Assembly (NCBI GenBank): GCA_009914755.4
Contig: CP068257.2
Coordinates: 30,272,001 to 30,336,000, forward strand
DNA: 64,000 nt
Source of the DNA: the human T2T-CHM13v2.0 reference genome, Homo sapiens
Direction of reading: 5' to 3'
In this document: one piece after another, positions 17,360-19,337 of the stretch
How positions within the stretch are numbered: the stretch's first letter is position 1
Layout of the letters: the number at the start of each line of letters is the position of its first letter
Position numbers and translations under genes: made by a program
The notes under the pieces: model-generated
Databases searched by the model: none
Told to the model about the DNA's origin: nothing
The model's input: only the letters and a program-made list of their open reading frames with translations

Positions 17360-18198
17360 GAAGGAGACACTGCTCTATAGAGGAGATAATACATTATGCT
17401 GTTTATAGCCATCTTTGCTTTGGTGATTCCATTGGTTAGTCACTATTAGTCACTTGCTGTTTATGAAGCGCTGTGTGTCGTGAAGGGGGAGTGGTCCCTG
17501 CATTAAGCCATGACTTACATCTTACTGCAGATGCTGTTGTATAGGGACGTAGGGAAGGAAGGTGCGGGGGAGTCTCTCTGGTAGGGAGGTTAGCCTCTGA
17601 AGGACCTGGGGTTGGGGGCTTGAGTGGGGGAAGGGGGTGGCTGGAGTACCTGGAAAGTGATAGAATGCATGTCCCAGGGAGTGACAAGACATGCCAGGAG
17701 GGAGAGCTGGGAGGAGTTGGGACCGGGTGGTGGTGGGGCTGATGGAGAAGATGCTTGGGTGCTCCCATAGGCAGCAGTGAGACCTCAAGAGCTTCTGCAA
17801 GAAATCAGAGTTCTAGACCCACTGATTTGGAGGCAGAGTGTAGAATGAATTCAAGAGGCCAGGAGGAGCCTCAAGAAGAGGTGACATCCATGCCTTAGTT
17901 CACCCTGGGGGTGGCCAGACTTTTATTGATTCGTTCACTATTTTGTTTAATTTAAAGTTTGCCTTTAGTTTGGACTTTTTCCCTTTTTTGTTTTCTTTTT
18001 GTTTTTTAAGGTTTTCTTCAGCTTTATTGAGGTTTAACTGACAGATAACCGCGTGTGCTTATAGTATGCAGGTTATGATAAGTGAGCATGTTGTGAAATG
18101 GTTACCATGGTCAAGCTCATGGACATGTCCATTACCTGACAGGGTTATCAGTTTTGTGTGTGTCTTGAGAACATTAAAAAATCTCTCAGCAATTTTCT

Positions 18199-18493
18199 TT
18201 CTTTTTTTTTGAGATGGAGTTTTGTTCTTGTTGCCCAGGCTGGAGTGCAATGGCACAATCTCTGCTCACTGCAACCTCTACCTCCCAGGTTCAAGCGATT
18301 CTCCTGCCTCAGCCTCCTGAGTAGCTGGGATTCCAGGCGTCCACCACCACACCCAGCTAGTTTTTATATTTTTAGTAGAGACAGGGTTTCGCCATGTTGG
18401 CCAGACTGGTCTCGAACCCCTGACCTCAAGTGATCCACCCGCCTTGGCCTCCCAAAGTGCTGGGATTACAGGCACAAGCCACCGTCCCCAGCC
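18199..18493 (-). mobile_element. Alu SINE (antisense), copy 1 of a tandem pair
   Basis: TTTCTTTCTTTTTTTTTGAGATGGAGTTTTGTTCTTGTTGCCCAGGCTGGAGTGCAATGGCACAATCT ... GCCACCGTCCCCAGCC. Preceded by CTCTCAGCAATTTTC. Confidence 0.9.
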
Positions 18494-18505
18494 TCTTAGC
18501 AGTTT

Positions 18506-18803
18506 TCTTTCTTTTTTTTTGAGACGGAGTTTTGTTCTTGTTGCCCAGTCTGGAGTGCAATGGCACAATCTTGGCTCACTGCAACTTCTACCTCCTGGGT
18601 TCAAGCGATTCTCCTGCCTAAGCCTCCCGAGTAGCTGGGATTCCAGGCATCCACCACCACGCCCATCTAATTTTTGTGTTTTTAGTAGAGACAGGGTTTC
18701 ACCATGTTGGCCGGGCTGGTCTTGAACTCCTGACCTCAAGTAATTCACCCGCCTCGGCCTCCCAAAGTGTTGGGATTACAGGCACGAGCCACCACGCCCG
18801 GCC
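18506..18803 (-). mobile_element. Alu SINE (antisense), copy 2 of a tandem pair
   Basis: Same unusual variants as copy 1 (GGGATTCCAGGC instead of GGGATTACAGGC). Flanked on both sides by CTCTTAGCAGTTTTC. Confidence 0.9.
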
Positions 18804-19337
18804 TCTTAGCAGTTTTCAAGTGTGCAATACATTATTGTTAAGCCTGGTCACCATGCTGTACATTGGATCTCAGACTTCTGTTTTTTTCTTTATCATGAAC
18901 TATGTCCACAAAATAATATTTGAGCCCCTCACTGAAAACATGTATTCATCTGTATTTATTTACTTATTATTTATTTCTGTACTTGTACCTCTGTGTATGG
19001 CATATTGCATATAATGCATATTGAGTGCGTTGTGAAACAGGTACAAAATGTAATTACAAAAAAGAGAAATAACAAGAAATGGAAGGTCCACTGACTTCAT
19101 CCTGCACCCGGAGGCTCCATAGCTGTGTATGAAGGTGTTCCTGGGATGCTCATGTCTCAGTTCATGACAGGGCATCTGGGCACTGGGGCAGTGGTTGGAA
19201 TGAACCAGGCGGGTGGTGTAGGGGAACAGAGAGGAAGGACAGGTGGCGAGACAGCTGGAAGAAGACATTGACATCATGTGTTGACGTCAGTGGCTGATCA
19301 CATTAGAGAGGGGAGTGAAGAAAAAAGAAGGAACAGG

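What the first reader, a model, noticed from the sequence alone, without database searches (positions are those of the whole stretch)
18184..18820. Tandem duplication of an Alu together with its target-site duplication (TSD-Alu-TSD-Alu-TSD)
Two antisense Alus (18199-18493 and 18506-18803) are separated only by CTCTTAGCAGTTTTC. The same 15-mer follows the second copy, and a diverged version (CTCTCAGCAATTTTC) precedes the first. Both copies share idiosyncratic non-consensus variants (GGGATTCCAGGC instead of GGGATTACAGGC) and a (TTTC)2T9 tail. They are therefore duplicates of one insertion, not two independent integrations. The ~309-bp unit was most plausibly duplicated by unequal exchange between the flanking TSD copies. 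The copies differ at roughly 8-10% of positions by eye, so the duplication is old.
Basis: seen in the sequence. Interest (0 to 1): 0.5.

Follow-up and report, generated by a model that had tools for sequence, protein, structure and literature searches.

The report
Old tandem duplication of one Alu
A single Alu retrotransposon and one copy of its 15-bp target-site duplication were copied head-to-tail roughly 20 million years ago, giving a two-unit 310-bp repeat; it is a clean example of a known, ordinary way that mobile elements seed tandem repeats.

Summary
Window 18183-18817 is a 310-bp unit repeated 2.0 times plus a third copy of a 15-mer. The units differ at 31 of 310 positions and have no indels. 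Each unit is a 15-bp target-site duplication (TSD), a 13-nt tail and a full-length antisense AluS.

The TSD-Alu-TSD-Alu-TSD layout does not prove duplication. Two independent insertions at one target site give the same layout (McGurk and Barbash 2018). Most "shared variants" are CpG decay or subfamily-diagnostic positions.

Four other lines favour one insertion that was later duplicated:
- The A9-G-A3 tails are identical; no other two Alus in the window share a tail.
- Four states (19G, 153-154 GA, 161G, 214-215 TA) occur in none of 26-28 other window Alus.
- CpGs decayed in both copies show the same product 11:2, rank 1 of 210 AluS pairs, P about 9e-4.
- The copies are neighbour-joining sisters, bootstrap 77-85%.

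Both breakpoints lie in the TSDs. Slippage and unequal exchange cannot be told apart. The duplication came about 30-40% of the way through the element's life, and I see no later gene conversion. No orthologue or other allele could be retrieved. This is an ordinary member of a known class, of low interest.

The parts
18183..18197 (-). TSD copy 1 (CTCTCAGCAATTTTC on +; sense GAAAATTGCTGAGAG). It has 2 private transitions relative to the other two copies.
18198..18210 (-). Tail of Alu copy 1: TTTCTTTTTTTTT on +, which is A9-G-A3 in sense
18211..18493 (-). Alu copy 1 body, full-length AluS (consensus positions 1-282), 87.6% identical to the AluSx probe. The last base, 18493, is ambiguous with the TSD.
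18493..18507 (-). TSD copy 2 (CTCTTAGCAGTTTTC), the junction between the two units
18508..18520 (-). Tail of Alu copy 2, identical to the tail of copy 1 (A9-G-A3 in sense)
18521..18803 (-). Alu copy 2 body, full-length AluS, 88.0% identical to the AluSx probe. The last base, 18803, is ambiguous with the TSD.
18803..18817 (-). TSD copy 3 (CTCTTAGCAGTTTTC)
18813..18819 (+). Inferred L1-endonuclease first-nick site, 5'-TTTTC|AA-3' on the + strand. In Alu sense orientation this reads TT|GAAAA.
   Evidence: Read from the sequence. The match to the L1 EN target preference is from general knowledge.
18176..18181 (-). T6 run in Alu sense orientation, 1 nt beyond TSD copy 1. It is a potential Pol III terminator for read-through Alu transcripts and matters only for the speculative RNA-mediated reading.
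   Evidence: Read from the sequence

Best explanation
One AluS element, of the sub-lineage carrying 65T, 244T, 262A, an extra A after 264 and 272A, inserted in antisense orientation by L1-type target-primed reverse transcription. The target read TT|GAAAACTGCTAAGAG in Alu sense orientation, and the insertion created a 14-15-bp TSD. After about 30-40% of the element's present age had passed, the 310-bp segment [TSD + tail + Alu] was duplicated in tandem. By then about 10 of its 24 CpGs had decayed and a few non-CpG changes had accumulated. The duplication arose from a misalignment whose two breakpoints lie inside the two identical TSDs. Candidate processes are backward slippage or template switching of a nascent strand from the distal to the proximal TSD, or microhomology-guided unequal joining or exchange between sister chromatids or homologues. 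The product is TSD-Alu-TSD-Alu-TSD. Since then the two units have diverged independently to 10% (K2P 0.11), with no indels and no detectable gene conversion. Shown: the structure, the common descent of the two copies, and the location of the breakpoints in the TSDs. Inferred: the order of events, the dates and the molecular process. The array has no evident function.
For: Structure: period 310, 2.0 copies, no indels, plus a third 15-mer. A duplication yields exactly 2 x 310 + 15 bp only if both breakpoints fall within the 15-bp repeats. Common descent: the 13-nt tails are identical (A9-G-A3), while no two of the other 28 window Alus share a tail. States 19G, 153-154 GA, 161G and 214-215 TA occur in 0 of 26-28 other copies, and 268A in 2 of 28. 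These states are spread along the element and interleaved with private differences. CpGs decayed in both copies carry the same product in 11 cases and different products in 2, against a background same-fraction of 0.38 over 210 AluS pairs; this is rank 1 of 210, binomial P 9e-4. The copies are mutual nearest neighbours at 10.2%. They agree at 34 of 36 window-polymorphic non-CpG columns and are NJ sisters with bootstrap 0.77 on all sites and 0.85 on non-CpG sites. No later homogenisation: the longest identical run is 23 bp, against a random mean of 37. Timing: non-CpG changes number 3-5 on the shared stem versus 6 and 9 private. About 10 CpGs were lost on the stem, and of about 14 remaining, 5 and 8 are still intact. 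Precedent: segments flanked by 5-20-bp direct repeats are a recognised origin of TE-derived tandem repeats in human, with about 300 cases under the Haber-Louis model (PMC3389668). The reciprocal product, precise Alu deletion between TSDs, is documented in primates (cited in PMC10531181).
Against: The margin is not overwhelming. Each copy is about 12% from the AluSx consensus and 10.2% from the other. By single-column counting only 2 non-CpG states are pair-exclusive, a value reached by 3 of 435 pairs. Two unrelated AluS pairs reach CpG same:different ratios of 10:3. Bootstrap support is 77-85%, not 100%. No single-copy or three-copy allele and no orthologue could be examined. The subfamily consensus sequences were written from memory, although the window's own Alus were used as the control. 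Fifteen bp is very short for classical homologous unequal crossing-over, so that particular mechanism is doubtful.
Confidence: 0.85

Rival explanations
1. Double insertion. Two independent Alu retrotransposition events used the same L1-endonuclease site. The first insertion preserves the upstream TT|GAAAA site. A second insertion there with the same 15-bp stagger gives TSD-Alu-TSD-Alu-TSD without any DNA-level duplication.
For: A target site retained in the junction of a tandem TE dimer is the published signature of double insertion, including for non-LTR elements such as R1 and jockey (PMC5932611). The upstream site is indeed retained. Each copy is nearly as far from the other (10.2%) as from the consensus (about 12%). 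Published primate rates of precise parallel insertion (0.01-0.04%) are of the same tiny order as precise TSD-mediated deletion, so priors do not exclude it.
Against: Independent insertions should have independent tails, but here the tails are identical, A9-G-A3. Four states absent from all other window Alus are shared. The 11:2 same-product CpG decay implies that about 10 CpGs had decayed before the copies separated, which is unexpected for two fresh copies from active sources. The model also requires the same orientation, the same sub-lineage (34 of 36 informative columns), the same full-length 5' end and the same stagger to the base, since there are no indels.
Confidence: 0.06
2. Double insertion followed by an early, whole-element gene conversion that homogenised the two neighbours, after which they diverged again.
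For: Adjacent Alus of one subfamily can undergo gene conversion (general knowledge). This would explain the shared private states and tails after independent insertion.
Against: It needs two rare events instead of one. The conversion tract would have to cover body, tail and TSD exactly. No patchiness is visible: the differences are spread evenly and the longest identical run is 23 bp.
Confidence: 0.03
3. RNA-mediated duplication in cis. A Pol III read-through transcript of the first copy ends at the T6 run just beyond its 3' TSD. Its 3' end is therefore complementary over 15 nt to the primer released when L1 endonuclease re-nicks the retained upstream TSD. Reverse transcription from that primer copies the tail and Alu, recreating the unit with an identical tail.
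For: The T6 run lies 1 nt beyond TSD copy 1 (18176-18181), the TT|GAAAA site is retained upstream, and the tail is preserved exactly. The predicted product is identical to what is observed.
Against: There is no positive evidence. It requires reuse of the nick site and a second-strand resolution exactly at the TSD/Alu boundary. The ancestral A box already carried two changes (19G, 20T). DNA-level slippage explains the same product with fewer assumptions.
Confidence: 0.04
4. Assembly or collapse artefact, or a chance juxtaposition of two unrelated Alus.
For: None specific; no independent assembly could be consulted.
Against: The units differ at 31 positions, so they are not a mis-assembled duplicate of the same reads. 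The three 15-mers are far beyond chance: 3 observed against 0.26 expected.
Confidence: 0.01

Closest known systems
TE-derived tandem repeats initiated between short flanking direct repeats (Haber and Louis model; Jurka and Gentles 2006; Ahmed and Liang 2012, PMC3389668)
   Same: A two-unit array derived from an Alu. The array is bounded by n+1 copies of a 5-20-bp direct repeat. The units are each other's closest relatives. The origin is by slippage or unequal exchange between the short repeats.
   Different: Here the direct repeats are the element's own TSDs, so the unit is the complete Alu with tail and one TSD rather than an internal Alu fragment. The 15-bp repeat is longer than the 7-bp mode reported there.
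Precise removal of Alus by recombination between their TSDs (van de Lagemaat et al. 2005, as cited in the papers; rates in PMC10531181)
   Same: Same substrate, the two 10-20-bp identical TSDs of one element, and the same class of misalignment event. The duplication is the gain product and precise deletion is the loss product.
   Different: Opposite outcome: 2 copies instead of 0. That the two are reciprocal products of a single exchange is an inference, not shown.
Tandem TE dimers formed by double insertion at one target site (McGurk and Barbash 2018, PMC5932611)
   Same: Identical architecture, a head-to-tail dimer with the TSD preserved in the junction. A preferred endonuclease-type target is retained after the first insertion.
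   Different: The two elements here share tail, 5' end, private substitutions and pre-separation CpG decay, unlike independently inserted copies; for example, jockey dimers had distinct 5' truncations.

Membership tests
Alu SINE (AluS), inserted by L1 machinery | About 282-bp dimeric body alignable end to end with the Alu consensus | tested here: met
   Both copies align to positions 1-282 of the AluSx probe at 87.6% and 88.0%, scoring above the AluY and AluJo probes. The probes were written from memory, but they agree with the window-derived majority consensus.
Alu SINE (AluS), inserted by L1 machinery | A-rich 3' tail followed by a 7-20-bp TSD that also precedes the 5' end; target resembling TT|AAAA | tested here: met
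   The tail is A9-G-A3 and the TSD is 14-15 bp, present three times. The empty site reads cacactt|GAAAACTGCTAAGAG|attttt, i.e. TT|GAAAA. The target preference itself comes from general knowledge.
Alu SINE (AluS), inserted by L1 machinery | Both copies belong to the same subfamily | tested here: met
   They agree at 34 of 36 non-CpG columns that are polymorphic among the window's Alus (minor state in at least 4 of 28). The 2 disagreements are private to copy 1. Naming the sub-lineage AluSx1-like rests on memory.
Tandem repeat generated between short flanking direct repeats | Head-to-tail units of constant period, with n+1 copies of the short direct repeat | tested here: met
   Period 310, 2.0 copies, 0 indels, three 15-mers
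Tandem repeat generated between short flanking direct repeats | Units descend from one another locally: closest relatives with shared private mutations | tested here: met
   Mutual nearest neighbours; NJ sisters at 77-85%; four pair-exclusive states; CpG same:different 11:2, rank 1 of 210; identical tails. The comparison used only the 28 other Alus of this window, not the whole genome.
Tandem repeat generated between short flanking direct repeats | Ancestral single-unit allele at the orthologous locus | not testable with these tools
   No primate or human assemblies are available. Contig scans and exact ORF look-ups found nothing.
Double-insertion tandem TE dimer | TSD of the expected length preserved in the junction | tested here: met
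   A 15-bp TSD lies at 18493-18507. This feature is shared with the duplication model and so is not discriminating.
Double-insertion tandem TE dimer | The two elements carry marks of independent insertion: different tails, truncations or subfamily, and no shared post-insertion mutations | tested here: not met
   Identical tails and 5' ends, the same sub-lineage, shared private states and shared CpG decay

The most novel reading that the evidence does not exclude
The dimer was made not by DNA misalignment but by cis retro-duplication. A Pol III read-through transcript of the resident Alu, terminating at the T6 run just past its 3' TSD, annealed over 15 nt to the primer produced when L1 endonuclease re-cut the retained upstream TSD. 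It was then reverse-transcribed in place. If so, TSDs would make every Alu with an adjacent terminator a self-templating site for local tandem amplification.
Probability: 0.04. Interest if true: 0.55.

Novelty: new member of a known kind. Interest (0 to 1): 0.15.

Why it matters
It matters little on its own. It is a tidy textbook example showing that the TSDs of a retrotransposon can act as microhomology for gaining a whole element, the counterpart of the documented precise loss of Alus. Such dimers are the first step from dispersed repeat to tandem array. The practical lesson concerns method. The TSD-TE-TSD-TE-TSD layout does not tell duplication from double insertion. Tail identity and the same-versus-different CpG decay product test can tell them apart from a single sequence. 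For phylogenetic use of Alu presence/absence, such loci could be mis-scored as two insertions.

Tried and rejected
(1) I scanned JGI metagenome contigs and GTDB genome contigs for contaminating primate copies of the locus, using four flank or junction patterns. All gave 0 hits.

(2) I ran exact-protein look-ups of four mechanical ORFs spanning the left flank, the junction and the right flank, to pull Logan or NCBI contigs. None is on record. After that I ran no further search on a non-coding ORF.

(3) I looked for a host gene so that whole-gene loci could be fetched from other primates. The window has no CpG-island-like segment, and the longest non-Alu ORFs show no coding-like sequence (two are translations of tandem repeats), so this route was closed.

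(4) The Rfam scan found only an Alu scoring as SRP RNA at 22283-22399 and nothing near the finding.

(5) Simple distance and single-column exclusive-variant counts turned out to be only weakly discriminating. I supplemented them with the dinucleotide-state, CpG-product, tail and bootstrap tests.

(6) Gene conversion as a source of similarity was rejected because there is no long identical tract.

(7) Retrotransposition of a pre-formed dimer from elsewhere was rejected because the spacer equals the local flanking TSD.

Full report
OBSERVATION

The sequence at 18183-18817 is as described. Tandem Repeats Finder reports a single array there: period 310, 2.0 copies, 90% matches, no indels, score 1053. 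It is the only Alu-length tandem repeat in the 64-kb window.

The 15-mer CTCTTAGCAGTTTTC lies at 18493-18507 and 18803-18817. A 13/15 version, CTCTCAGCAATTTTC, lies at 18183-18197. These are the only three matches in the window with up to 2 mismatches. Chance expectation is 0.26, and none of 100 shuffles reached 3.

Units 18183-18492 and 18493-18802 align without gaps and differ at 31 of 310 positions: 26 transitions and 5 transversions, with 13 differences at CpG sites. The base C at 18183/18493/18803 can be assigned either to the TSD or to the first G of the Alu, so the TSD is 14 or 15 bp.

WHAT THE UNITS ARE

The window is Alu-dense primate DNA, with 36 Alu segments including AluY-like copies. 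Both copies are full-length antisense AluS, aligned to consensus positions 1-282 at about 88% identity. They score better against the AluSx probe than against the AluY or AluJo probes.

Read in Alu sense orientation (minus strand), the locus is:
cacactt | GAAAACTGCTAAGAG | Alu-2 | A9GA3 | GAAAACTGCTAAGAG | Alu-1 | A9GA3 | GAAAATTGCTGAGAG | attttttaatg.

The reconstructed empty site, TT|GAAAA..., is a common variant of the L1 endonuclease target (general knowledge). The + strand reads ...CAGTTTTC followed by T-rich tail and antisense Alu. This is what priming of reverse transcription from the nicked + strand would produce.

DOES THE GEOMETRY PROVE DUPLICATION? NO

McGurk and Barbash (PMC5932611) show that a target site preserved in the junction of a tandem TE dimer is exactly what double insertion at one site produces. 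A first insertion keeps the preferred target upstream. A second insertion there with the same stagger yields TSD-TE-TSD-TE-TSD.

Published primate frequencies for precise parallel insertion are 0.01-0.04%. For precise TSD-mediated deletion they are 12 among 54,037 Alus. Both are of the same very low order (PMC10531181), so prior odds do not settle the matter. The two models had to be separated on internal evidence.

I used the 28 other near-full-length Alus of the window as a control that does not depend on remembered consensus sequences. The two copies are mutual nearest neighbours at 10.2%, yet each is only about 12% from the AluSx consensus.

Of the 20 states they share against that consensus:
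- 13 are at CpG sites, where parallel decay is common (each is seen in 4-14 of the other 28 copies).
- About five (65T, 244T, 262A, the extra A after 264, 272A) are carried by 4-11 other copies and so behave as subfamily-diagnostic.

Counting single columns, only two non-CpG states are exclusive to the pair. Three of 435 Alu pairs reach that value.

DISCRIMINATING TESTS

1. Tails. Both tails are A9-G-A3, identical in length and in the position of the interruption. No two of the other 28 Alus share a tail, and none has this one.

2. Dinucleotide states. The corresponding motifs are found nowhere else in Alus of the window, apart from 268A in one fragment. The states are spread from position 19 to the tail, interleaved with private differences.

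3. CpG-product test. A CpG lost before a duplication must show the same product (TG or CA) in both copies, whereas independent losses give either. Of 13 CpGs lost in both copies, 11 show the same product and 2 show different products. Over 210 AluS pairs in the window the pooled same-fraction is 0.38, and this pair ranks first. The binomial P is 9e-4, or 0.011 even against 0.5. Two unrelated pairs reach 10:3, so this test alone is suggestive rather than conclusive.

4. Subfamily and tree. The copies agree at 34 of 36 non-CpG columns that are polymorphic among the window's Alus. They are neighbour-joining sisters with bootstrap support of 0.77 on all sites and 0.85 on non-CpG sites.

5. No gene-conversion tract. 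The 31 differences are evenly spread. The longest identical run is 23 bp, against a random mean of 37. The similarity is therefore not due to recent homogenisation of two independent insertions.

Taken together, these tests make common descent from a single insertion the best explanation. I put it at about 0.85.

BREAKPOINTS AND MECHANISM

The array is exactly 2 x 310 + 15 bp with no indel. A tandem duplication produces this only if both breakpoints fall inside the two 15-bp TSDs. That the event was guided by TSD homology is thus read directly from the structure. Which process used that homology is not recoverable from one sequence.

[quoted passage not shown] Ahmed and Liang count about 300 TE-derived tandem repeats in human with such flanks. 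A 2022 review also lists TSD microhomology as a substrate for repair-associated tandem duplication (PMC9659126).

From general knowledge, 15 bp is far below the homology usually needed for meiotic unequal crossing-over. This ranking is an inference.

TIMING

Non-CpG changes number 3-5 on the shared stem and 6 and 9 on the two branches. About 10 of 24 CpGs were lost on the stem. Of roughly 14 that remained, 5 and 8 are still intact. Both clocks place the duplication about 30-40% of the way through the element's history. Some stem changes may have been source-gene variants, which would move the duplication closer to the insertion.

K2P distance between the units is 0.110 over all sites and 0.067 excluding CpG sites. 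With the conventional non-CpG rate of 0.15% per My (from memory), this gives roughly 22 My, with wide error. The leftmost TSD has since acquired two transitions.

RIVALS

- Double insertion (0.06) fits the geometry but not the tails, the private states or the CpG pattern.
- Double insertion followed by whole-element conversion (0.03) needs two rare events and leaves no trace.
- RNA-mediated cis re-insertion (0.04) would give the same product. It supposes that a read-through transcript of the resident Alu, ending at the T6 run one base beyond its 3' TSD (18176-18181), is primed by the re-nicked upstream TSD. I have no evidence for it. It is the most novel reading that the data do not exclude.
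- Artefact (0.01) is excluded by the 31 differences between the units.

LIMITS

No orthologue, alternative allele or independent assembly could be obtained. The background is only the 28 other Alus of this window, not the genome. Subfamily naming and the substitution rate rest on memory. The window shows no CpG island, and its longest non-Alu ORFs show no coding-like sequence, so the array is presumably intronic or intergenic with no evident function.

VERDICT

The mechanism is narrowed to a TSD-guided misalignment. This is an ordinary, old member of a known class of TE-derived tandem repeats, and its interest is low.

Noticed in passing
window 43150-43606 (within a long repeat-coded ORF at 43046-43996): A minisatellite of 12 copies of a 38-bp unit (GCCTGCGCATTCCCACATCCCAGTCTCAAGCCAGTGGC), 92% matches and no indels. 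It creates spurious ORFs of 239-317 aa. It is a likely VNTR.
   Followed up: no
window 15248-15423: A 28-bp unit repeated 6.3 times (GGGCTGGACTGAGCGGTATGAGGATGAG) at 93% matches. It also underlies a repetitive ORF on the minus strand.
   Followed up: no
window 29552-29968: A 417-bp Alu-like segment that TRF reports as 2.4 copies of a 135-bp period. It looks like an Alu with an extra monomer, or a partial Alu adjacent to a full one, a pattern that Ahmed and Liang list among unexplained TE-derived tandem repeats.
   Followed up: no
window 17046-17330 (+) and 19344-19611 (+), flanking the dimer at 18183-18817 (-): The antisense dimer sits between two sense-oriented Alus about 850 bp and 530 bp away, giving several 24-51-nt inverted-repeat arms at 71-88% complementarity. 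If the region is transcribed it could form Alu dsRNA. The downstream AluJ tail runs into a (GAAG)n microsatellite at 19647-19787.
   Followed up: no
window 22283-22399 (-): The only Rfam hit above gathering score is Metazoa_SRP (74.8 bits against a threshold of 70). It lies inside the Alu at 22123-22399, so it is an Alu left arm scoring as 7SL RNA rather than an SRP RNA gene.
   Followed up: partly
window 23243-23526 (-) and 23547-23821 (+): Two Alus (an AluS and an AluY-like copy) lie 5' end to 5' end only 20 bp apart, next to a (TTCT)n tract at 23136-23242. This is a closely spaced inverted Alu pair of the type considered recombinogenic.
   Followed up: no
window 21097-21297 (-): A 5'-truncated AluS fragment shares the uncommon 3'-end motif CAAGAACAAAAC (268A) with the two tandem copies. 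This suggests that 268A may be a minor source-lineage variant rather than a private mutation.
   Followed up: partly
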